Shown piece after piece: positions 99-39,846 of a stretch of 39,846 nucleotides of DNA. Position numbers and translations under genes: made by a program. The notes beneath the pieces are model-generated. The model saw nothing but the letters and a program-made list of their open reading frames with translations. It did not search any database and was not told the origin of the DNA. The DNA is from Escherichia coli (GTDB lineage Bacteria; Pseudomonadota; Gammaproteobacteria; Enterobacterales; Enterobacteriaceae): assembly GCF_003334335.1 (NCBI RefSeq), contig NZ_QOWQ01000039.1. One strand, written 5' to 3'. Position 1 is the stretch's first letter. Each line of letters opens with the position of its first letter.

Positions 99-251
99 CT
101 ACTTCTTCGGTTCGTAAGCGAGAACAGCCTTAAACTCAATATTACGTTCCTTCACCGTAAACTCACACAGCGAGTCTCCGACCAGAAGCGTAAATCCCAG
201 CACCGTTAAACACAGCACTATGACTGCCGCAAGGGCATATTTCGTCAGCAT
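99..251 (-). CDS. hokE: Hok-family small membrane toxin HokE (50 aa), type I toxin-antitoxin
   Basis: The last 50 codons of the 99..350 ORF translate to [50 protein letters not shown], which has the Hok family hydrophobic N-terminus and conserved Cys/Glu pattern. ATG at 249-251, TAG stop at 99-101, GGAGG Shine-Dalgarno just upstream. Confidence 0.85.
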
Positions 252-480
252 GTTTATATTGCCTCCATGCGAAGAAGGGACTACCATCCAAATTGTTCGG
301 GTTTGGAGTGGCAGCCCCAGGGTTGATAGAAATATCTCCTGGGGCTTCATCTTTCCAGACCTCAGAGTAAACCTGAAACCGGAAAGCTTCAGGCACCCGC
401 CGTTATCTTACCCTTCCTCAACAAAATAGCTGTTTATTTATACAGTGAGTCCTGTTTCGGACTTCTCACTCCTCATTTAA
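252..480 (-). promoter_or_regulatory. hokE mRNA leader region, expected to hold the overlapping mok-like frame and the antisense sokE RNA; exact boundaries not determined
   Basis: By analogy with hok/sok loci. A GTG-initiated 77-aa frame (163..396, minus) overlaps hokE out of frame like mok in plasmid R1, and an in-frame upstream ATG (350) also exists. Promoters and antisense RNA ends cannot be fixed by eye. Confidence 0.35.
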
Positions 481-12518: not shown

Positions 12519-13202
12519 ATGAAACTGCTGATTGTCGAAGATGAAAAGAAAACCGGAGAATACTTGACCAAAGGGTTAACCGAAGCCGGTTTTGTGGTCG
12601 ATTTGGCCGACAACGGGCTGAATGGCTACCATCTGGCGATGACCGGAGATTATGACCTGATAATCCTCGATATTATGCTGCCGGACGTGAACGGCTGGGA
12701 TATCGTGCGCATGTTGCGCTCCGCCAATAAAGGGATGCCGATTCTGTTGCTTACCGCGCTTGGCACCATTGAACATCGCGTCAAGGGGCTGGAGTTGGGG
12801 GCCGATGACTATCTGGTGAAGCCGTTCGCTTTTGCTGAACTGCTGGCGCGGGTGCGCACTCTCCTGCGGCGCGGGGCGGCGGTGATTATCGAAAGTCAGT
12901 TTCAGGTTGCCGATCTGATGGTCGATCTCGTCAGCCGCAAAGTCACCCGCAGCGGCACGCGCATCACTCTGACCAGTAAAGAATTTACTCTGCTGGAGTT
13001 TTTCCTTCGCCATCAGGGCGAAGTGCTGCCCCGCTCGCTTATCGCCTCGCAGGTATGGGACATGAATTTCGACAGCGACACTAACGCCATTGATGTGGCG
13101 GTGAAGCGGCTACGCGGCAAAATCGACAACGACTTTGAGCCGAAGCTGATTCAAACCGTGCGCGGCGTGGGTTACATGCTTGAGGTGCCGGATGGTCAGT
13201 AA
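12519..13202 (+). CDS. cusR: Copper-responsive two-component response regulator CusR, OmpR family (227 aa)
   Basis: 227-aa [23 protein letters not shown]... with receiver domain and winged-helix C-terminus. Confidence 0.95.
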
Positions 13203-14634
13203 GCCATTTCAGCGCCCGTTTTCGCTGGCAACCCGCCTGACCTTTTTTATCAGCCTGGCCACCATCGCGGCGTTTTTCGCCTTTGCATGGATCATGATCC
13301 ACTCAGTAAAAGTGCATTTTGCCGAGCAGGATATTAATGATTTAAAAGAGATTAGCGCCACCCTTGAACGGGTACTAAATCACCCTGACGAAACGCAAGC
13401 CCGACGCTTAATGACGCTGGAAGATATCGTCAGTGGTTATTCCAATGTGTTGATTTCCCTGGCAGATAGTCAGGGTAAAACGGTGTATCACTCCCCCGGT
13501 GCGCCCGATATCCGCGAGTTTACGCGTGACGCCATACCCGATAAAGACGCGCGGGGCGGCGAGGTGTATCTCCTTTCCGGCCCGACGATTATGATGCCAG
13601 GGCACGGTCACGGGCATATGGAACACAGCAACTGGCGGATGATTAACTTACCGGTTGGCCCGCTGGTTGACGGCAAACCGATTTATACGCTCTACATCGC
13701 GCTTTCGATCGATTTTCATCTTCATTACATAAATGATTTGATGAATAAACTTATTATGACCGCATCGGTAATCAGCATCCTGATCGTCTTTATCGTGCTG
13801 TTGGCGGTACATAAAGGTCACGCGCCGATCCGCAGCGTCAGCCGTCAAATCCAGAATATTACCTCGAAAGATCTCGACGTTCGCCTTGACCCGCAGACCG
13901 TGCCCATTGAGCTGGAACAGCTGGTACTGTCGTTCAACCATATGATCGAGCGTATTGAGGATGTCTTTACCCGCCAGTCCAATTTCTCAGCGGATATCGC
14001 TCACGAAATTCGCACACCAATTACGAATCTCATAACGCAAACCGAAATCGCCCTCAGCCAGTCGCGCAGCCAGAAGGAGCTGGAAGATGTGCTCTACTCT
14101 AATCTCGAAGAGCTGACGCGAATGGCGAAAATGGTCAGCGATATGCTGTTTCTCGCTCAGGCCGATAACAACCAGCTAATCCCCGAAAAGAAAATGCTCA
14201 ACCTGGCGGATGAAGTCGGCAAAGTGTTCGATTTTTTCGAGGCGTTAGCGGAAGATCGCGGCGTGGAGTTGCGGTTTGTTGGCGACAAGTGTCAGGTCGC
14301 GGGCGATCCGCTGATGCTGCGTCGGGCGCTAAGCAACCTGCTTTCGAACGCCCTGCGTTATACGCCAACCGGAGAGACAATTGTAGTGCGCTGTCAGACG
14401 GTCGATCACCTGGTGCAAGTTATCGTCGAAAACCCCGGTACGCCCATTGCGCCCGAGCACTTACCGCGATTGTTTGACCGTTTCTATCGCGTTGACCCCT
14501 CCCGCCAGCGAAAAGGTGAAGGTAGCGGTATTGGCCTGGCGATAGTGAAATCGATTGTTGTCGCGCATAAAGGCACGGTTGCGGTAACGTCGGATGCGCG
14601 GGGGACAAGGTTTGTTATCACATTACCCGCTTAA
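13192..14634 (+). CDS. cusS: Copper/silver sensor histidine kinase CusS (480 aa)
   Basis: ORF trimmed to ATG at 13192 ([19 protein letters not shown]...); two transmembrane segments, H-box ([10 protein letters not shown]) and ATPase motifs; overlaps cusR by 11 nt. Confidence 0.93.
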
Positions 14635-14783
14635 TCCTTCAGCAAACGGCAACTTTTATAACCAGTGTAAAAATAACGTGCCGCAATAGTCATACCTATT
14701 AATGGTAAAAAGCTGTCACAATTCATAAAAAACCTTAATATACGCCACCCTAAACATAACCAGCGTTAATGTAAGGTTTTTGT

Positions 14784-17021
14784 GTGGACTGGCTTCTTGA
14801 TGTTTTTGCTACCTGGCTCTACGGCTTAAAAGTAATCGCGATAACGTTAGCGGTCATCATGTTCATCAGCGGGCTGGACGATTTTTTTATTGATGTCGTC
14901 TACTGGGTACGCCGCATTAAACGCAAGTTGAGTGTTTATCGCCGCTACCCGCGAATGAGTTACCGCGAACTGTATAAACCAGATGAAAAACCGTTAGCGA
15001 TTATGGTTCCGGCGTGGAATGAAACGGGCGTCATCGGCAATATGGCCGAGCTGGCGGCGACCACGCTCGACTACGAAAACTATCATATCTTTGTTGGCAC
15101 CTACCCCAACGCCCCCGATACTCAGCGTGATGTTGACGAAGTGTGCGCTCGCTTCCCGAATGTGCATAAGGTAGTCTGCGCGCGTCCTGGCCCCACCAGC
15201 AAAGCCGACTGTCTGAACAACGTGCTGGACGCCATCACCCAATTTGAGCGTAGCGCCAATTTCGCTTTTGCTGGTTTTATTCTGCATGACGCCGAAGATG
15301 TGATTTCACCGATGGAATTGCGTCTGTTCAACTATCTGGTCGAGCGTAAAGATCTGATTCAGATCCCGGTGTATCCGTTCGAACGCGAATGGACGCACTT
15401 CACCAGCATGACTTACATTGATGAGTTTTCAGAGCTGCATGGCAAAGATGTTCCGGTGCGTGAAGCCCTCGCCGGACAAGTGCCCAGCGCAGGCGTCGGC
15501 ACCTGTTTCAGCCGCCGCGCCGTGACCGCACTGTTAGCTGACGGTGACGGTATTGCTTTCGACGTGCAGAGTCTTACTGAAGATTACGACATTGGCTTCC
15601 GCCTGAAAGAAAAAGGTATGACGGAAATTTTTGTCCGTTTTCCGGTGGTGGACGAAGCCAAAGAACGCGAGCAGCGTAAATTTTTACAGCACGCGCGGAC
15701 ATCAAACATGATCTGCGTGCGCGAATATTTCCCCGATACCTTTTCGACTGCGGTTCGACAAAAATCCCGCTGGATCATCGGCATTGTTTTCCAAGGCTTT
15801 AAAACCCATAAATGGACCTCCAGCCTGACGCTGAACTACTTTCTCTGGCGCGACCGCAAAGGGGCAATCAGTAACTTTGTCAGCTTCCTCGCGATGCTGG
15901 TGATGATCCAGCTTTTGCTGTTGCTGGCGTATGAAAGTTTGTGGCCCGATGCCTGGCATTTCCTTTCTATTTTCAGCGGCAGCGCATGGTTAATGACCCT
16001 GCTGTGGCTAAACTTTGGTTTGATGGTTAACCGCATCGTGCAGCGGGTGATTTTCGTTACTGGCTACTACGGCCTGACGCAGGAGCTGCTTTCCGTCCTG
16101 CGTCTTTTCTGGGGCAACCTGATTAACTTCATGGCCAACTGGCGCGCGCTAAAACAGGTACTTCAACACGGCGATCCACGTCGCGTGGCGTGGGATAAAA
16201 CAACGCATGACTTCCCCAGCGTGACTGGCGATACCCGCTCGTTGCGCCCGTTAGGTCAAATTCTGCTGGAAAATCAGGTCATCACTGAAGAACAACTCGA
16301 TACAGCACTGCGTAATCGCGTCGAAGGTCTACGCCTGGGCGGTTCAATGCTGATGCAGGGGCTGATTAGCGCCGAGCAGCTGGCACAGGCGCTGGCAGAG
16401 CAAAACGGCGTGGCGTGGGAATCCATCGATGCCTGGCAGATCCCTTCCTCGCTGATTGCCGAAATGCCGGCCTCCGTGGCGCTGCATTATGCGGTACTGC
16501 CGCTGCGTCTGGAAAATGACGAGTTAATTGTCGGCAGTGAAGATGGTATTGACCCGGTTTCGCTGGCGGCCCTGACGCGTAAAGTCGGACGCAAAGTGCG
16601 TTACGTCATTGTTCTGCGGGGACAAATTGTCACAGGGTTACGTCACTGGTATGCACGCCGACGCGGTCACGATCCGCGGGCAATGTTGTACAATGCGGTT
16701 CAGCATCAGTGGCTCACGGAACAGCAGGCCGGTGAAATCTGGCGGCAATATGTGCCGCATCAGTTCCTGTTCGCCGAAATACTGACCACGCTCGGTCATA
16801 TTAATCGTTCAGCAATTAACGTGTTGTTATTGCGCCATGAACGCAGTTCTCTGCCGCTCGGCAAGTTTTTGGTCACCGAAGGCGTTATCAGCCAGGAAAC
16901 GTTGGATCGCGTCCTGACAATTCAACGCGAATTACAAGTTTCGATGCAATCACTATTACTCAAAGCAGGTTTAAACACAGAACAGGTTGCGCAACTGGAG
17001 TCCGAAAATGAAGGAGAATAA
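14784..17021 (+). CDS. nfrB: NfrB: inner-membrane family-2 glycosyltransferase needed for bacteriophage N4 adsorption (745 aa)
   Basis: 745-aa ORF starting at GTG 14784 (MDWLLDVFATWLYGLKV...), recognised as NfrB. Confidence 0.9.
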   Translation: MDWLLDVFATWLYGLKVIAITLAVIMFISGLDDFFIDVVYWVRRIKRKLSVYRRYPRMSYRELYKPDEKPLAIMVPAWNETGVIGNMAELAATTLDYENYHIFVGTYPNAPDTQRDVDEVCARFPNVHKVVCARPGPTSKADCLNNVLDAITQFERSANFAFAGFILHDAEDVISPMELRLFNYLVERKDLIQIPVYPFEREWTHFTSMTYIDEFSELHGKDVPVREALAGQVPSAGVGTCFSRRAVTALLADGDGIAFDVQSLTEDYDIGFRLKEKGMTEIFVRFPVVDEAKEREQRKFLQHARTSNMICVREYFPDTFSTAVRQKSRWIIGIVFQGFKTHKWTSSLTLNYFLWRDRKGAISNFVSFLAMLVMIQLLLLLAYESLWPDAWHFLSIFSGSAWLMTLLWLNFGLMVNRIVQRVIFVTGYYGLTQELLSVLRLFWGNLINFMANWRALKQVLQHGDPRRVAWDKTTHDFPSVTGDTRSLRPLGQILLENQVITEEQLDTALRNRVEGLRLGGSMLMQGLISAEQLAQALAEQNGVAWESIDAWQIPSSLIAEMPASVALHYAVLPLRLENDELIVGSEDGIDPVSLAALTRKVGRKVRYVIVLRGQIVTGLRHWYARRRGHDPRAMLYNAVQHQWLTEQQAGEIWRQYVPHQFLFAEILTTLGHINRSAINVLLLRHERSSLPLGKFLVTEGVISQETLDRVLTIQRELQVSMQSLLLKAGLNTEQVAQLESENEGE

Positions 17022-19980
17022 CCTTAATCGCGTCATCGGATGGTCTGGTTTACTGCTGACGTCTTTATTGAGTACCAGCGCACTCGCAGACAATATCGGC
17101 ACCAGCGCAGAAGAGCTGGGGCTGAGCGATTATCGCCATTTTGTTATTTATCCCCGTCTCGATAAAGCGCTGAAGGCACAGAAAAATAACGACGAAGCAA
17201 CCGCCATCCGCGAATTTGAATATATACACCAGCAGGTGCCGGATAATATTCCGCTGACTTTATACCTTGCGGAAGCCTATCGCCATTTTGGTCATGATGA
17301 CCGGGCGCGGCTGTTGCTTGAGGATCAACTGAAACGTCACCCAGGAGATGCCCGACTTGAGCGCAGTCTGGCGGCTATTCCGGTTGAAGTGAAAAGCGTT
17401 ACGACAGTTGAAGAACTGCTTGCCCAGCAAAAAGCGTGCGATGCTGCGCCGACCCTGCGTTGTCGCAGTGAAGTCGGGCAGAATGCCCTGCGGCTGGCAC
17501 AGTTACCTGTCGCCAGAGCGCAACTGAACGATGCGACGTTTGCTGCATCGCCGGAAGGAAAAACGCTGCGAACCGATCTGCTGCAACGGGCAATCTACCT
17601 GAAACAATGGTCCCAGGCAGATACGCTATACAATGAAGCACGCCAGCAGAACACATTAAGCGCGGCAGAACGCCGTCAGTGGTTTGACGTGCTTCTTGCC
17701 GGGCAGCTGGACGATCGGATCCTGGCACTGCAATCACAGGGGATCTTCACCGATCCTCAGTCATATATTACTTACGCGACCGCGCTGGCTTATCGTGGCG
17801 AAAAAGCACGCCTCCAGCATTATCTCATTGAAAATAAGCCACTATTTACCACGGACGCACAAGAGAAAAGTTGGCTCTATCTGTTATCTAAATACAGCGC
17901 TAACCCCGTTCAGGCGTTGGCGAATTATACGGTACAGTTTGCCGACAACCGCCAGTATGTTGTTGGCGCGACGCTACCGGTGCTGTTAAAAGAAGGTCAG
18001 TACGACGCAGCGCAAAAACTGCTCGCCACCCTCCCCGCCAATGAAATGCTTGAGGAGCGTTATGCTGTCAGCGTGGCGACCCGTAACAAGGCTGAAGCTC
18101 TGCGTCTGGCACGATTGCTGTATCAGCAAGAACCGGCAAATCTTACCCGCCTGGATCAACTAACCTGGCAACTGATGCAGAACGAGCAGTCACGCGAAGC
18201 TGCCGATTTATTGCTGCAACGCTATCCTTTCCAGGGCGATGCGCGTGTCAGCCAGACTTTAATGGCGCGACTGGCGTCTCTGCTGGAAAGTCATCCTTAC
18301 CTGGCAACGCCGGCGAAGGTGGCGATTTTATCGAAACCCTTACCGCTGGCGGAGCAACGTCAGTGGCAAAGTCAGTTGCCGGGTATTGCAGATAATTGCC
18401 CGGCAATAGTTCGCTTGCTGGGCGATATGTCGCCTTCCTACGATGCCGCCGCCTGGAACCGTCTGGCAAAGTGTTATCGGGACACGCTACCCGGTGTGGC
18501 GTTGTATGCATGGCTTCAGGCCGAACAACGACAACCGAGCGCCTGGCAACATCGTGCGGTAGCCTATCAGGCGTATCAGGTTGAGGACTACGCCACCGCA
18601 CTGGCGGCCTGGCAGAAAATCAGTCTTCACGACATGAGCAATGAGGATCTGCTTGCTGCTGCCAATACCGCCCAGGCGGCAGGAAATGGTGCGGCTCGCG
18701 ATCGCTGGCTACAACAGGCAGAAAAACGTGGACTGGGAAGCAATGCCCTCTACTGGTGGCTGCATGCGCAACGTTACATTCCTGGTCAGCCGGAACTCGC
18801 ACTGAACGATCTCACGCGCTCAATCAATATTGCGCCTTCTGCCAACGCTTACGTTGCGCGGGCGACAATTTATCGCCAACGTCATAATGTCCCGGCCGCG
18901 GTGAGTGATTTGCGCGCCGCGCTGGAACTGGAACCGAATAATAGCAACACCCAGGCAGCGCTTGGTTACGCCTTGTGGGATAGCGGTGATATCGCACAGT
19001 CGCGGGAAATGCTCGAACCGGCGCATAAAGGGCTTCCGGACGATCCGGCACTGATCCGACAACTGGCCTACGTGAACCAGCGTCTGGATGACATGCCTGC
19101 GACGCAGCACTACGCCCGGCTGGTGATTGATGACATTGATGATCAGGCGCTGATAACCCCACTGACCCCAGAACAAAATCAACAACGCTTCAATTTCCGC
19201 CGTTTGCATGAGGAGGTCGGTCGCCGCTGGACGTTCAGTTTCGATTCTTCCATCGGCTTGCGTTCCGGCGCAATGAGTACCGCTAACAATAATGTCGGCG
19301 GCGCAGCGCCAGGGAAAAGCTATCGTAGCTACGGACAACTGGAAGCCGAGTACCGCATCGGACGCAATATGCTGCTGGAAGGCGACCTGCTCTCAGTTTA
19401 TAGCCGCGTCTTTGCCGATACCGGAGAAAACGGGGTGATGATGCCGGTGAAAAATCCGATGTCCGGCACCGGTCTGCGCTGGAAGCCGCTGCGCGATCAG
19501 ATCTTTTTCATCGCCGTCGAACAGCAGTTGCCGCTGAACGGCCAAAATGGCGCATCCGATACCATGCTGCGCGCCAGCGCCTCATTCTTTAATGGCGGCA
19601 AATACAGCGACGAATGGCACCCGAACGGTTCAGGCTGGTTTGCCCAAAACCTGTACCTCGATGCGGCGCAATATATCCGCCAGGATATTCAGGCGTGGAC
19701 GGCAGATTATCGCGTCAGCTGGCATCAGAAGGTAGCTAACGGACAGACTATTGAGCCTTACGCTCACGTTCAGGACAACGGCTATCGTGATAAAGGCACT
19801 CAGGGCGCGCAGCTTGGCGGAGTCGGGGTCCGCTGGAATATCTGGACCGGCGAGACGCACTACGACGCCTGGCCGCACAAAGTCAGTCTCGGCGTCGAGT
19901 ATCAACATACCTTTAAGGCGATTAATCAACGTAACGGAGAGCGCAACAACGCGTTTCTCACCATTGGAGTGCACTGGTAA
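17008..19980 (+). CDS. nfrA: NfrA: outer-membrane protein, bacteriophage N4 receptor (990 aa)
   Basis: ORF trimmed to ATG at 17008 (MKENNLNRVIGWSGLLLTSLLSTSALA, signal peptide); TPR-like repeats then C-terminal beta-rich domain; overlaps nfrB by 14 nt. Confidence 0.9.
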   Translation: MKENNLNRVIGWSGLLLTSLLSTSALADNIGTSAEELGLSDYRHFVIYPRLDKALKAQKNNDEATAIREFEYIHQQVPDNIPLTLYLAEAYRHFGHDDRARLLLEDQLKRHPGDARLERSLAAIPVEVKSVTTVEELLAQQKACDAAPTLRCRSEVGQNALRLAQLPVARAQLNDATFAASPEGKTLRTDLLQRAIYLKQWSQADTLYNEARQQNTLSAAERRQWFDVLLAGQLDDRILALQSQGIFTDPQSYITYATALAYRGEKARLQHYLIENKPLFTTDAQEKSWLYLLSKYSANPVQALANYTVQFADNRQYVVGATLPVLLKEGQYDAAQKLLATLPANEMLEERYAVSVATRNKAEALRLARLLYQQEPANLTRLDQLTWQLMQNEQSREAADLLLQRYPFQGDARVSQTLMARLASLLESHPYLATPAKVAILSKPLPLAEQRQWQSQLPGIADNCPAIVRLLGDMSPSYDAAAWNRLAKCYRDTLPGVALYAWLQAEQRQPSAWQHRAVAYQAYQVEDYATALAAWQKISLHDMSNEDLLAAANTAQAAGNGAARDRWLQQAEKRGLGSNALYWWLHAQRYIPGQPELALNDLTRSINIAPSANAYVARATIYRQRHNVPAAVSDLRAALELEPNNSNTQAALGYALWDSGDIAQSREMLEPAHKGLPDDPALIRQLAYVNQRLDDMPATQHYARLVIDDIDDQALITPLTPEQNQQRFNFRRLHEEVGRRWTFSFDSSIGLRSGAMSTANNNVGGAAPGKSYRSYGQLEAEYRIGRNMLLEGDLLSVYSRVFADTGENGVMMPVKNPMSGTGLRWKPLRDQIFFIAVEQQLPLNGQNGASDTMLRASASFFNGGKYSDEWHPNGSGWFAQNLYLDAAQYIRQDIQAWTADYRVSWHQKVANGQTIEPYAHVQDNGYRDKGTQGAQLGGVGVRWNIWTGETHYDAWPHKVSLGVEYQHTFKAINQRNGERNNAFLTIGVHW

Positions 19981-20871
19981 ATGCGTAAGTTCATTTTCGT
20001 ATTGCTGACACTGCTTTTGGTCAGCCCTTTTTCCTTTGCGATGAAAGGTATTATCTGGCAACCACAAAACCGAGATAGTCAGGTTACCGATACCCAGTGG
20101 CAGGGGCTGATGAGTCAGTTACGTTTGCAAGGCTTCGATACCCTTGTTTTGCAATGGACCCGTTACGGCGATGCATTTACCCAGCCAGAACAGCGCACGT
20201 TATTGTTTAAGCGGGCCGCAGCTGCGCAACAGGCTGGTCTGAAGCTTATTGTCGGGCTGAACGCCGATCCGGAATTTTTTATGCACCAGAAACAGTCGTC
20301 CGCAGCGCTGGAAAGCTATCTTAATCGCCTGCTGGCTGCCGATCTCCAGCAAGCCAGATTATGGAGCGCCGCGCCTGGCATAACGCCGGATGGCTGGTAC
20401 ATCAGCGCGGAAATTGACGACCTGAACTGGCGCAGCGAAGCCGCCCGTCAGCCTTTGCTAACATGGTTAAACAACGCGCAGCGGCTGATTAGCGATGTTT
20501 CAGCAAAACCGGTTTATATCAGTAGTTTTTTCGCCGGAAACATGTCGCCCGATGGCTATCGCCAACTGCTGGAACACGTTAAAGCAACCGGCGTTAATGT
20601 CTGGGTACAGGATGGCAGCGGCGTGGATAAACTGACCGCTGAACAGCGTGAACGTTATTTACAGGCCAGCGCCGATTGCCAAAGTCCCGCCCCTGCCAGC
20701 GGCGTTGTTTATGAACTTTTTGTCGCCGGCAAAGGCAAAACCTTTACAGCGAAACCGAAACCGGACGCAGAAATTGCCTCGCTGTTAGCGAAACGTTCCT
20801 CTTGCGGTAAAGACACTCTCTATTTCTCTCTGCGCTATTTGCCCGTCGCGCACGGCATTCTCGAGTATTAA
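19981..20871 (+). CDS. ybcH: YbcH, secreted protein of the nfrBA-ybcH operon (296 aa)
   Basis: 296-aa ORF with signal peptide (MRKFIFVLLTLLLVSPFSFA); ATG immediately follows the nfrA stop codon. Confidence 0.88.
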   Translation: MRKFIFVLLTLLLVSPFSFAMKGIIWQPQNRDSQVTDTQWQGLMSQLRLQGFDTLVLQWTRYGDAFTQPEQRTLLFKRAAAAQQAGLKLIVGLNADPEFFMHQKQSSAALESYLNRLLAADLQQARLWSAAPGITPDGWYISAEIDDLNWRSEAARQPLLTWLNNAQRLISDVSAKPVYISSFFAGNMSPDGYRQLLEHVKATGVNVWVQDGSGVDKLTAEQRERYLQASADCQSPAPASGVVYELFVAGKGKTFTAKPKPDAEIASLLAKRSSCGKDTLYFSLRYLPVAHGILEY

Positions 20872-21053
20872 ATCTCCTCCAGGTAAGTCGGGTACGACCT
20901 GGCTTACCTCTTTCGCTCTCATCAGAATTCCATCAAGATTAATTGCTAAAAAGCGTGCTAAAGAAAGAAGATCGTTATCGGCGAACGGGCCGATCACTCA
21001 TGCAGGAAGCATAGATCCTTTGAGCGGAGTTTCTGATATCTGAGGAGTGCGAA

Positions 21054-21815
21054 ATGCAATTGAGCAGCAGTGAACCTTGCGTGGTGATCCTGACCGAAAA
21101 AGAGGTAGAGGTAAGCGTCAATAACCATGCTACGTTTACCCTTCCGAAAAACTACCTGGCCGCCTTCGCGTGCAACAATAACGTCATTGAACTCTCAACG
21201 TTAAATCACGTATTAATCACCCACATCAACCGTAACATCATCAACGATTATCTGTTGTTTTTAAATAAGAACTTAACCTGTGTAAAGCCCTGGTCGCGGC
21301 TGGCAACCCCGGTTATCGCTTGTCATAGCCGTACACCGGAAGTGTTCCGGCTAGCCGCCAACCACAGCAAGCAGCAACCCAGCAGACCCTGCGAAGCGGA
21401 GTTGACGCGCGCATTGCTTTTTACCGTATTGTCTAACTTTCTTGAGCAATCGCGGTTTATTGCCCTACTGATGTATATCTTACGCAGCAGCGTCCGCGAC
21501 AGCGTCTGCCGCATTATTCAAAGCGATATTCAGCATTACTGGAATCTGCGAATTGTCGCCAGTTCGCTATGTTTAAGCCCCAGCCTGCTCAAAAAGAAAT
21601 TAAAAAACGAAAATACCAGCTATAGCCAGATTGTCACAGAGTGTCGTATGCGTTACGCCGTACAGATGTTATTGATGGATAACAAAAATATCACTCAGGT
21701 GGCGCAATTATGTGGCTATAGCAGCACGTCGTACTTTATCTCTGTTTTTAAGGCGTTTTACGGCCTGACACCGTTGAATTATCTCGCCAAACAGCGACAA
21801 AAAGTGATGTGGTGA
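21054..21815 (+). CDS. envY: AraC-family transcriptional regulator EnvY (253 aa)
   Basis: 253-aa ORF with C-terminal AraC-type helix-turn-helix (...QVAQLCGYSSTSYFISVFKAFYGLTPLNY); position next to ybcH. Confidence 0.85.
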   Translation: MQLSSSEPCVVILTEKEVEVSVNNHATFTLPKNYLAAFACNNNVIELSTLNHVLITHINRNIINDYLLFLNKNLTCVKPWSRLATPVIACHSRTPEVFRLAANHSKQQPSRPCEAELTRALLFTVLSNFLEQSRFIALLMYILRSSVRDSVCRIIQSDIQHYWNLRIVASSLCLSPSLLKKKLKNENTSYSQIVTECRMRYAVQMLLMDNKNITQVAQLCGYSSTSYFISVFKAFYGLTPLNYLAKQRQKVMW

Positions 21816-21860
21816 AGGGCAAAGCGGAAACGGATAAGACGGGCATAAATGAGGAAGAAA

Positions 21861-21937
21861 TGGCGCGCCCTGCAGGATTCGAACCTGCGGCCCACGACTT
21901 AGAAGGTCGTTGCTCTATCCAACTGAGCTAAGGGCGC
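21861..21937 (-). tRNA. argU: tRNA-Arg (anticodon UCU), argU
   Basis: Reverse complement reads GCGCCCTTAGCTCAGTTGGATAGAGCAACGACCTTCTAAGTCGTGGGCCGCAGGTTCGAATCCTGCAGGGCGCGCCA: full cloverleaf, anticodon loop CUUCUAAG, encoded CCA end. Confidence 0.95.
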
Positions 21938-39770: not shown

Positions 39771-39846
39771 CATAAGCGCTAACTTAAGGGTTGAACCATC
39801 TGAAGAATGCGACGCCTCGGTGCCTCGTTAAGACGATGCCTCGCGT
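39771..39846. mobile_element. IS186-like insertion sequence, terminal fragment (element continues beyond the window end); 23-bp terminal inverted repeat at 39771-39793
   Basis: cataagcgctaacttaagggttg at 39771-39793 is the exact inverse of 55-77; element-internal sequence after it (aaccatctgaagaatgcgacgcc...) differs from that of the left copy, consistent with the opposite end of the same IS type. Confidence 0.75.

What the first reader, a model, noticed from the sequence alone, without database searches (positions are those of the whole stretch)
14784..20871. nfrB-nfrA-ybcH arranged as a tightly coupled operon
The nfrA start overlaps the nfrB 3' end by 14 nt, and the ybcH ATG directly abuts the nfrA stop, indicating translational coupling of a membrane glycosyltransferase, an outer-membrane protein and a secreted protein. 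These genes are known as the phage N4 adsorption locus. Their native function has been linked to a c-di-GMP-controlled surface polysaccharide, which is my recollection and not something visible in the sequence. The locus appears intact, so the strain is predicted to be N4-sensitive.
Basis: partly seen in the sequence, partly recalled or inferred. Interest (0 to 1): 0.3.

Follow-up and report, generated by a model that had tools for sequence, protein, structure and literature searches.

The report
Known nfrBA-ybcH operon, altered synthase
This is the already described E. coli operon that makes and exports the surface sugar polymer used by phage N4 as its receptor, but in this strain the sugar-polymerising enzyme carries an alanine where every relative has an aspartate, so an unbroken reading frame does not justify predicting phage sensitivity.

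Summary
nfrB (14784-17021), nfrA (17008-19980, 14-nt overlap) and ybcH (19981-20871, ATG directly after the TAA) lie on the + strand, as NCBI annotates them in near-identical genomes. The operon, its 14-bp overlap, c-di-GMP binding by NfrB's MshEN domain and the N4 glycan receptor were all published in 2021 (PMC8669469, PMC8669472), so the finding is already known. Tight junctions recur in five other species. Translational coupling is plausible but untested.

The prediction "intact, hence N4-sensitive" is not supported. The window differs from K-12 at three bases over about 7.9 kb (13888-21815), and all three change an amino acid.
- NfrB D110A: aspartate in 138 of 138 diverse homologues. It aligns with the first, UDP-binding Asp of the D,D,D,QxxRW signature. 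The allele occurs in 124 of 5426 complete E. coli genomes.
- NfrB G434E: this position is never charged in homologues. The allele occurs in 2 genomes.
- NfrA N712D: lies in a variable linker.

Ala substitutions of the other two signature aspartates abolish N4 plating in K-12. Sensitivity also needs wecB, dgcJ and c-di-GMP state, which lie outside the window.

YbcH models as a TIM-barrel glycoside-hydrolase fold with invariant Glu on strands 4 and 7. I read it as a probable periplasmic polymer hydrolase, not a scaffold.

The parts
14635..14783 (+). cusS-nfrB intergenic region, where the operon promoter must lie; AAGG ribosome-binding site at 14773-14776
   Evidence: 149 nt between the cusS stop and the nfrB GTG. 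No good sigma-70 match (best 8 of 12) or sigma-28 match (best 9-11 of 16). The promoter itself was not located.
14784..17021 (+). nfrB: inner-membrane, c-di-GMP-activated family-2 glycosyltransferase (745 aa, GTG start)
   Evidence: NCBIfam NF008411, 1325.7 bits. Pfam Glyco_trans_2_3, Glyco_tranf_2_3 and MshEN. The model of the GT domain best matches cellulose synthase BcsA 4p00, E 9e-13.
14991..15929 (+). GT2 catalytic domain (NfrB residues 70-382), with D169-A-E171 (15288-15296), TED 265-267 (15576-15584) and QKSRW 326-330 (15759-15773) all intact
   Evidence: D169A, D267A and W330A abolish N4 plating in K-12 (PMC8669469).
15111..15113 (+). NfrB codon 110: GCC (Ala) here, GAC (Asp) in K-12. 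It aligns with the first Asp of the D,D,D,QxxRW signature.
   Evidence: Asp in 138/138 representative homologues. Aligns with the first D of BcsA 'LDDG' (hhalign). Sits in the loop after strand beta-2 of the model. The Ala allele is in 124 genomes against 4372 with Asp, of 5426.
16083..16085 (+). NfrB codon 434: GAG (Glu) here, GGG (Gly) in K-12
   Evidence: Homologues have A 67, G 54, L 9, V 8, S 4, I 1, P 1 and never a charged residue. The Glu allele is in 2 of 5426 genomes; one of them, NCTC9038, also has A110.
16248..16403 (+). Two tandem 24-residue c-di-GMP-binding motifs (NfrB 489-512 and 517-540), intact, including L490, G491 and L537
   Evidence: NCBIfam NF053729, 66.4 bits. Motif scan. 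PDB relatives are PilF, MshE and PilB N-terminal c-di-GMP domains. Kd 1 uM measured in K-12.
17008..17021 (+). 14-nt overlap of the nfrB 3' end and the nfrA 5' end; GGAG at 16997-17000
   Evidence: The same overlap is stated in PMC8669469.
17008..19980 (+). nfrA: outer-membrane protein (990 aa) with a signal peptide, TPR repeats and a C-terminal NfrA_C domain (the published beta-barrel pore)
   Evidence: NCBIfam NF007302, 1888.1 bits. Pfam TPR_19 and NfrA_C 809-977. Codon 712 (19141-19143) is GAT (Asp) against AAT (Asn) in K-12, in a variable linker. The allele is in 0 of 5426 genomes.
19981..20871 (+). ybcH: periplasmic DUF4434 protein (296 aa), predicted TIM-barrel glycoside-hydrolase fold
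20881..20909 (+). 13-bp stem-loop 10 nt after the ybcH stop; candidate operon terminator
   Evidence: -19.1 kcal/mol, z -3.8 against shuffles. The downstream tract CUCUUUCGCUCUC is a weak U-run, and the simple terminator scan did not list it.

Best explanation
The region is the nfrBA-ybcH operon, a synthase-dependent exopolysaccharide system.

How it works in K-12 (shown in the literature):
- NfrB sits in the inner membrane. [quoted passage not shown]
- NfrA, with TPR repeats and an outer-membrane pore, takes the polymer to the surface. There it is the primary receptor of phage N4 and of several other phages.

Inferred here:
- YbcH is a periplasmic glycoside hydrolase that trims or clears the polymer, the role BcsZ or the PgaB C-terminal domain has in related systems.
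- The three genes are transcribed from a promoter in 14635-14783 and end at the hairpin at 20881-20909.
- The overlapping or abutting junctions, each with its own GGAG, allow ribosomes that finish one gene to start the next.
- In this strain the machine is probably crippled. NfrB has Ala at residue 110, which aligns with the first, UDP-binding Asp of the D,D,D,QxxRW signature, and Glu at the never-charged residue 434. I expect little or no polymer and reduced sensitivity to N4, despite unbroken reading frames.
For: Identity and architecture:
- Family and domain matches for all three proteins, with the same annotation in near-identical genomes and in K-12.
- The NfrB GT domain model best matches BcsA, then hyaluronan and chitin synthases.
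- The MshEN domain is related to solved c-di-GMP-binding domains.

Function, from the literature:
- c-di-GMP Kd of 1 uM, DgcJ specificity, and loss of N4 plating with D169A, D267A and W330A at unchanged protein levels (PMC8669469).
- The glycan receptor and the requirement for WecB only (PMC8669472).

Operon:
- Junction geometry, conserved in five species.
- Hairpin after ybcH.

Altered synthase:
- D110A and G434E.
- D110 is Asp in 138/138 homologues, against 133/139 for D169, 136/140 for D267 and 138/142 for W330.
- hhalign places D110 on the first D of BcsA 'LDDG', while PAWNE/PTYNE, DAE/DCD, TED/TED and QKSRW/QRIRW all align in register.
- The first two Asp of that signature coordinate UDP in BcsA (PMC8892547).
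- The Ala allele is a minority allele: 124 genomes against 4372.
- A single Asp-to-Ala change in nfrB arose in a phage-resistant mutant; that strain also carried a tolA stop codon, and sensitivity was restored by wild-type nfrB (PMC12548472).

YbcH:
- Fold matches and the invariant Glu pair.
Against: - No experiment addresses D110A or G434E; loss of function rests on conservation and alignment.
- The BcsA alignment has low overall probability (37.5%). The alignment to PgaC (92%) puts D110 three residues after PgaC's 'ND' aspartate, so the register of that loop is uncertain by a few residues.
- The A110 allele occurs in 124 isolates from many hosts, including old NCTC reference strains, and all 60 that were listed are annotated with an nfrB gene at the site. 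That fits retained function as well as recent inactivation.
- SNPs are not enriched in the nfr genes relative to the nearest genome: 2 of 11 in 6.1 of 39.7 kb.
- Translational coupling is untested, and no junction structure occludes the downstream starts.
- YbcH lacks the usual Asn before the strand-4 Glu. The published view is an anchored scaffold, and its loss only partly affects the system.
- The promoter was not found.
Confidence: 0.6

Rival explanations
1. The locus is fully functional. D110A, G434E and N712D are neutral polymorphisms, the polymer is made, and the strain is N4-sensitive if the rest of the pathway is present.
For: - All three frames are intact, and DAE, TED, QKSRW and both c-di-GMP motifs are unchanged.
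- A110 persists in 124 genomes from diverse hosts, and all 60 listed are annotated with an nfrB gene at the site.
- The PgaC alignment does not put D110 exactly on the canonical Asp.
- N712D lies in a variable linker.
Against: - D110 is Asp in 138/138 homologues that are 32-61% identical to the query, more conserved than residues proven essential.
- Position 434 is never charged.
- Ala substitutions of the other signature aspartates abolish function.
- All three differences from K-12 across 7.9 kb are non-synonymous.
Confidence: 0.35
2. The three genes share an mRNA but are translated independently. The overlap and abutment only reflect genome compaction, and each gene's own Shine-Dalgarno sequence sets its output.
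For: - GGAG lies at a workable distance before both downstream starts.
- No stable structure hides those starts (z +1.5 and +0.7).
- The exact junction geometry varies between species: 14, 4, 4 and 1 nt of overlap and a 1-nt gap.
- Other E. coli polysaccharide operons are similarly packed: pga with an 8-nt overlap and 1- and 8-nt gaps, bcs with a 19-nt overlap and 6- and 10-nt gaps.
Against: - Both junctions stay within one nucleotide of touching, or overlap, in all six species examined. This suggests selection for ribosome hand-over.
- The authors of PMC8669469 placed their tag so as not to disturb nfrA initiation.
Confidence: 0.4
3. The older model: NfrA and NfrB are themselves the phage receptor proteins, and no polymer is involved. 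Any full-length NfrA/NfrB would then suffice for N4 adsorption, whatever the catalytic residues.
For: - NCBIfam still names NfrA 'phage receptor', and RefSeq names it 'bacteriophage adsorption protein'.
- Some recent papers still draw NfrA/B as protein receptors.
Against: - Catalytic-site mutants with normal protein levels do not support N4.
- WecB, but not the rest of the ECA pathway, is required.
- c-di-GMP binding is required.
Confidence: 0.05

Closest known systems
nfrBA-ybcH operon of E. coli K-12 (Junkermeier & Hengge 2021; Sellner et al. 2021)
   Same: Same genes, order, lengths, 14-nt overlap and abutting ybcH start. Only 3 nucleotide differences across 13888-21815. YbcH is identical.
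   Different: NfrB D110A and G434E, and NfrA N712D. No DLP12 prophage, ompT or appY downstream of envY.
PgaABCD poly-GlcNAc system of E. coli
   Different: c-di-GMP is sensed by an MshEN domain fused to the synthase, not at a PgaC-PgaD interface. There is no deacetylase domain. The inferred substrate is UDP-ManNAc. The gene order is synthase first.
Bacterial cellulose synthase BcsA-BcsB-BcsZ-BcsC
   Same: BcsA is the best structural match of the NfrB GT domain (4p00, E 9e-13, TM 0.67). The D,D,D,QxxRW signature aligns in register. There is a periplasmic hydrolase (BcsZ) and a TPR/beta-barrel exporter (BcsC).
   Different: BcsA senses c-di-GMP through a PilZ domain. There is no BcsB homologue in the E. 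coli nfr operon. BcsZ is a GH8 (alpha/alpha)6 enzyme, not a TIM barrel.
MshEN c-di-GMP receptor domains of MshE, PilF and PilB secretion ATPases
   Same: Two tandem 24-residue motifs. Sequence relatives have solved structures (6f8l, 5htl).
   Different: Here the domain is fused to a glycosyltransferase, not an ATPase. A third motif-like stretch lies at residues 691-714.
BT_0435 (PDB 4h41), deposited as a putative alpha-L-fucosidase, and clan GH-A mannanases/mannosidases (GH5, GH113, GH164)
   Different: Sequence identity is only 7-15%. There is no Asn-Glu motif on strand 4. No activity has been shown for any DUF4434 protein in the papers searched.

Membership tests
NfrB equivalog (NCBIfam NF008411) | Full-length match above the curated cut-off | tested here: met
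   1325.7 bits against a cut-off of 1170, covering residues 7-728 of 745.
Processive family-2 glycosyltransferase (D,D,D,QxxRW) | First Asp (UDP coordination) | tested here: not met
   Residue 110 is Ala. It is Asp in K-12 and in 138/138 homologues. It aligns with the first D of BcsA 'LDDG' (low-probability alignment).
Processive family-2 glycosyltransferase (D,D,D,QxxRW) | Second Asp (DxD), third Asp (TED) and QxxRW | tested here: met
   D169-A-E171, T265-E266-D267 and Q326-K-S-R-W330 are present.
Processive family-2 glycosyltransferase (D,D,D,QxxRW) | GT-A fold related to membrane-embedded synthases | tested here: met
   Model pLDDT 82. Top Foldseek hits are BcsA, hyaluronan synthase and chitin synthase.
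Processive family-2 glycosyltransferase (D,D,D,QxxRW) | Polymerising activity | not testable with these tools
   Needs an enzyme assay or a phage assay.
MshEN c-di-GMP receptor | Two tandem 24-residue motifs with the conserved Leu/Gly positions | tested here: met
   Residues 489-512 and 517-540. L490, G491 and L537 are present. NF053729 66.4 bits. Pfam MshEN 9e-14.
MshEN c-di-GMP receptor | Binding of c-di-GMP | not testable with these tools
   Measured for the K-12 protein residues 414-745 (Kd 1 uM). Within that fragment the window protein differs only at residue 434, which is outside the MshEN motifs.
Synthase-dependent exopolysaccharide secretion system | Inner-membrane synthase, TPR/beta-barrel outer-membrane exporter and a periplasmic accessory enzyme in one operon | tested here: met
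   The same three-gene block occurs in five other species, one of them with an adjacent WecB-like epimerase gene.
NfrA equivalog (NF007302) | Full-length match, TPR repeats and the NfrA_C domain | tested here: met
   1888.1 bits against a cut-off of 1223. TPR_19 and NfrA_C 809-977.
DUF4434 (PF14488) | Pfam match | tested here: met
   1.8e-69 over residues 21-291. NF007404 520.4 bits against a cut-off of 344.
Clan GH-A glycoside hydrolase | (beta/alpha)8 barrel with catalytic Glu at the ends of strands 4 and 7 | tested here: inconclusive
   The fold and the invariant E144 and E245 are at the right places. The usual Asn-Glu motif is absent, and there is no sequence match to any solved hydrolase.
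Translationally coupled operon | Stop of the upstream gene overlapping or touching the downstream start | tested here: met
   14-nt overlap and 0-nt spacing, conserved in kind across six species.
Translationally coupled operon | Downstream translation depends on upstream translation | not testable with these tools
   Needs a reporter or nonsense-mutant experiment. No occluding RNA structure is predicted.

The most novel reading that the evidence does not exclude
The D110A allele of nfrB, joined here by G434E, is a natural, frame-preserving knock-out or knock-down of the N4 glycan receptor pathway. It would be a cryptic phage-resistance polymorphism carried by about 2% of sequenced E. coli and invisible to gene-presence or pseudogene screens. 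YbcH would be the pathway's missing polymer hydrolase and the first DUF4434 protein with an assigned activity.
Probability: 0.4. Interest if true: 0.45.

Novelty: already known. Interest (0 to 1): 0.27.

Why it matters
The operon itself adds nothing new. Its structure, including the 14-bp overlap, and its function were published in 2021.

Two small points may be useful:
- Predicting phage host range from receptor genes being 'present and intact' can fail. Here a single Ala sits at a position that is Asp in every homologue examined, in a lineage making up about 2% of complete E. coli genomes. This matters for choosing N4-like, Vequintavirinae and phi92-like phages that depend on this glycan.
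- YbcH, so far called a scaffold or auxiliary component, has the fold and the conserved glutamate pair of a glycoside hydrolase. That gives a concrete assay for a domain of unknown function and a possible tool for working out the structure of the polymer.

Tried and rejected
- Sequence searches of the PDB found no solved relative of the NfrB GT domain or of YbcH. This held for single sequences and for profiles. Only fold comparison worked.
- hhalign in global mode against BcsA failed; local mode gave a usable but low-probability alignment.
- The large homologue search with NfrB returned almost only E. coli variants. Cross-species loci were therefore reached through YbcH homologues.
- Promoter scans found no convincing sigma-70 or sigma-28 site in 14635-14783, so the promoter is not mapped.
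- The first junction probe for the 225-nt nfrB deletion allele also matched undeleted genes. The redesigned probe found only 1 genome, so the frequency of that allele in complete genomes is low or hidden by nearby SNPs.
- I tested whether SNPs cluster in the nfr genes relative to the nearest genome. They do not: 2 of 11.
- Rfam finds no RNA element in the locus.
- I rejected the idea that A110 is a sequencing error, because 124 independent genomes carry it.
Full report
**Observation**

- nfrB, 14784-17021, GTG start, 745 aa
- nfrA, 17008-19980, 990 aa
- ybcH, 19981-20871, 296 aa

The nfrA ATG lies 14 nt inside nfrB, whose TAA is at 17019-17021. The nfrA TAA at 19978-19980 is followed directly by the ybcH ATG. 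NCBI's annotation of a near-identical genome (NZ_CP051001) and of K-12 MG1655 uses the same coordinates and junctions. There are no frameshifts or internal stops. The 6.4-kb query spanning the locus matches 5252 of 5426 complete E. coli genomes.

**Identity**

All three proteins pass NCBI's curated equivalog cut-offs. Pfam gives these domains:
- NfrB: two GT2 families and an MshEN domain
- NfrA: TPR repeats and NfrA_C
- YbcH: DUF4434

The MshEN part of NfrB is related to solved c-di-GMP-binding domains of PilF, MshE and PilB. Both 24-residue binding motifs are intact. A model of the GT domain (pLDDT 82) best matches cellulose synthase BcsA, then hyaluronan and chitin synthases.

**What is already published**

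Junkermeier and Hengge (PMC8669469) describe the nfrBA-ybcH operon of K-12 and state the 14-bp overlap explicitly. They report:
- c-di-GMP binding with a Kd of 1 uM
- a specific requirement for DgcJ
- loss of N4 plating with D169A, D267A and W330A at unchanged protein levels
- that YbcH is dispensable for N4 plating

Sellner et al. (PMC8669472) show that N4 and several other phages use an NfrB-dependent glycan that needs WecB but no other ECA gene. They also show that the phosphodiesterase PdeL protects the cell.

**Operon and coupling**

- A 149-nt intergenic region precedes nfrB. I could not find a convincing sigma-70 or sigma-28 promoter in it, although the literature reports FliA dependence.
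- Ten nucleotides after the ybcH stop there is a 13-bp hairpin (20881-20909, -19.1 kcal/mol, z -3.8) with a weak U-tract.
- Each downstream start has a GGAG inside the preceding gene.
- Neither junction is predicted to fold better than shuffled sequence.
- In five other species reached through YbcH homologues, the same three genes occur in the same order. These are Citrobacter amalonaticus, Pluralibacter gergoviae, Pragia fontium, a Rouxiella, and one genome (GCA_003069545.1) whose species I did not establish.
- Their junctions are all overlapping or at most 1 nt apart. The fifth genome also has a WecB-like epimerase gene directly upstream.

Tight junctions are therefore a conserved trait, which fits ribosome hand-over. 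Dependence of downstream translation on upstream translation has not been shown, here or in the papers read. The pga and bcs operons of K-12 are similarly compact.

**The unexpected part**

Between positions 13888 and 21815 the window differs from K-12 at only three bases, and all three are non-synonymous: NfrB D110A, NfrB G434E and NfrA N712D.

In an alignment of the 150 best representatives of clusters at 50% identity, residue 110 is Asp in 138 of 138 sequences that cover it. That is more conserved than the experimentally essential residues:
- D169: 133/139
- D267: 136/140
- W330: 138/142

Residue 434 is A, G, L, V, S, I or P, and never charged.

Residue 110 lies in an invariant Y-P-N-D-x-x-T loop just after strand beta-2 of the GT-A fold. 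A profile alignment to E. coli BcsA puts it on the first D of 'LDDG', with all the other signature motifs in register. In BcsA the first two aspartates of the D,D,D,QxxRW signature coordinate UDP (PMC8892547). The alignment to PgaC has higher probability but shifts this loop by three residues, so the exact equivalence is likely but not certain.

Allele counts with 33-mers centred on each SNP, among 5426 complete genomes:

| Allele | Window allele | K-12 allele |
|---|---|---|
| NfrB 110 | A110: 124 | D110: 4372 |
| NfrB 434 | E434: 2 | G434: 1233 (exact 33-mer) |
| NfrA 712 | D712: 0 | not searched |

NCTC9038, one of the two E434 genomes, carries both A110 and E434. NfrA residue 712 lies in a variable linker.

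A single Asp-to-Ala change elsewhere in nfrB has been recovered in a phage-resistant mutant. That strain also carried a tolA stop codon, and sensitivity was restored by wild-type nfrB (PMC12548472).

Against a loss of function:
- No experiment addresses these alleles.
- The A110 allele is found in isolates from many hosts and decades, and all 60 that were listed are annotated with an nfrB gene at the site.
- SNPs are not enriched in the nfr genes relative to the nearest genome.

I put the chance that this NfrB is substantially impaired at somewhat above one half.

**N4 sensitivity**

Even with a wild-type operon, sensitivity needs WecB, DgcJ and a permissive c-di-GMP state. It is also modified by Rcs/colanic acid and other genes. 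None of these lies in the window. Together with D110A, this leaves the prediction 'intact, hence sensitive' unsupported.

**YbcH**

- A model built on 32 homologues is confident (pLDDT 92.6). It is a (beta/alpha)8 barrel.
- E144 and E245 are invariant and end strands 4 and 7. That is the catalytic geometry of clan GH-A (established knowledge of the 4/7 superfamily).
- The literature calls YbcH a putative scaffold, and I found no paper assigning it a hydrolase role.
- Its partial phenotypes fit an accessory hydrolase such as BcsZ.
- The N-terminus looks like a signal peptide with a nearly invariant Ala at -1, whereas the paper describes an uncleaved anchor. I could not test this.

**Verdict**

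The added value here is a caution about a natural active-site variant and a functional hypothesis for YbcH.

Noticed in passing
window 21054-21937: envY (21054-21815) lies directly next to tRNA-Arg(UCU) (21861-21937). The roughly 21-kb DLP12 cryptic prophage, with appY and ompT, that separates them in K-12 is absent, so this strain lacks the OmpT protease gene at this site.
   Followed up: partly
window 39772-39846: The last 75 nt diverge from the nearest genome inside fdrA. They match a multi-copy element (median 3, up to 22 copies per genome, also on plasmids) whose neighbouring gene is annotated as an IS4-like IS421-family transposase. This is an IS insertion interrupting fdrA.
   Followed up: partly
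window 16183-16195 and 16408-16420: Two perfect 13-nt direct repeats (GCGTGGCGTGGGA) flank the 225 nt encoding NfrB residues 471-545. In 670-aa NfrB variants of other E. coli and Shigella this stretch is deleted in frame, which removes both c-di-GMP-binding motifs. Several such variant proteins are each recorded on 100-330 contigs, but only 1 of 5426 complete genomes has the exact junction.
   Followed up: partly
other E. coli genomes (proteins P0129-P0186, e.g. P0150): 1268-aa proteins in which about 566 residues with PAAR and DUF6531 (Rhs-type) domains replace the first ~54 residues of NfrB, including its N-terminal membrane segment. P0150 alone is seen on 527 contigs. Whether this is a real fusion or a start-codon call was not checked.
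   Followed up: no
window 16854-16925 (NfrB residues 691-714): A third stretch fitting the 24-residue MshEN motif pattern (PLGKFLVTEGVISQETLDRVLTIQ) lies near the C-terminus and is conserved in homologues. The papers read mention only the tandem pair.
   Followed up: no
window 12519-13887 versus 13888-21815: Against K-12 there are 34 differences in cusR-cusS up to 13887 and then only 3 in the next 7.9 kb. This is an abrupt change in divergence, as expected at a recombination boundary inside cusS.
   Followed up: no
window 14635-14783: No sigma-28 consensus (best 9-11 of 16) and no good sigma-70 match upstream of nfrB, although the nfrB::lacZ fusion is reported as FliA-dependent. The FliA effect may be indirect, or the promoter atypical.
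   Followed up: partly
window 243-398, - strand: Rfam match to the sok antitoxin RNA (84.4 bits, gathering score 59), belonging to the hokE toxin-antitoxin locus.
   Followed up: no
window 8728, 10497, 24200, 38399: Private non-synonymous differences from the nearest complete genome: cusA E216K, cusB T38A, sfmH L50P and fdrA V533G. In all, 6 of 11 SNPs in 39.7 kb are non-synonymous.
   Followed up: no
window 19981-20040 (YbcH residues 1-20): The YbcH N-terminus (MRKFIFVLLTLLLVSPFSFA|M) has a basic start, a hydrophobic core and small residues at -3 and -1, and Ala-20 is nearly invariant in 32 homologues. This looks like a cleavable signal peptide, whereas the published description is an uncleaved membrane anchor.
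   Followed up: no
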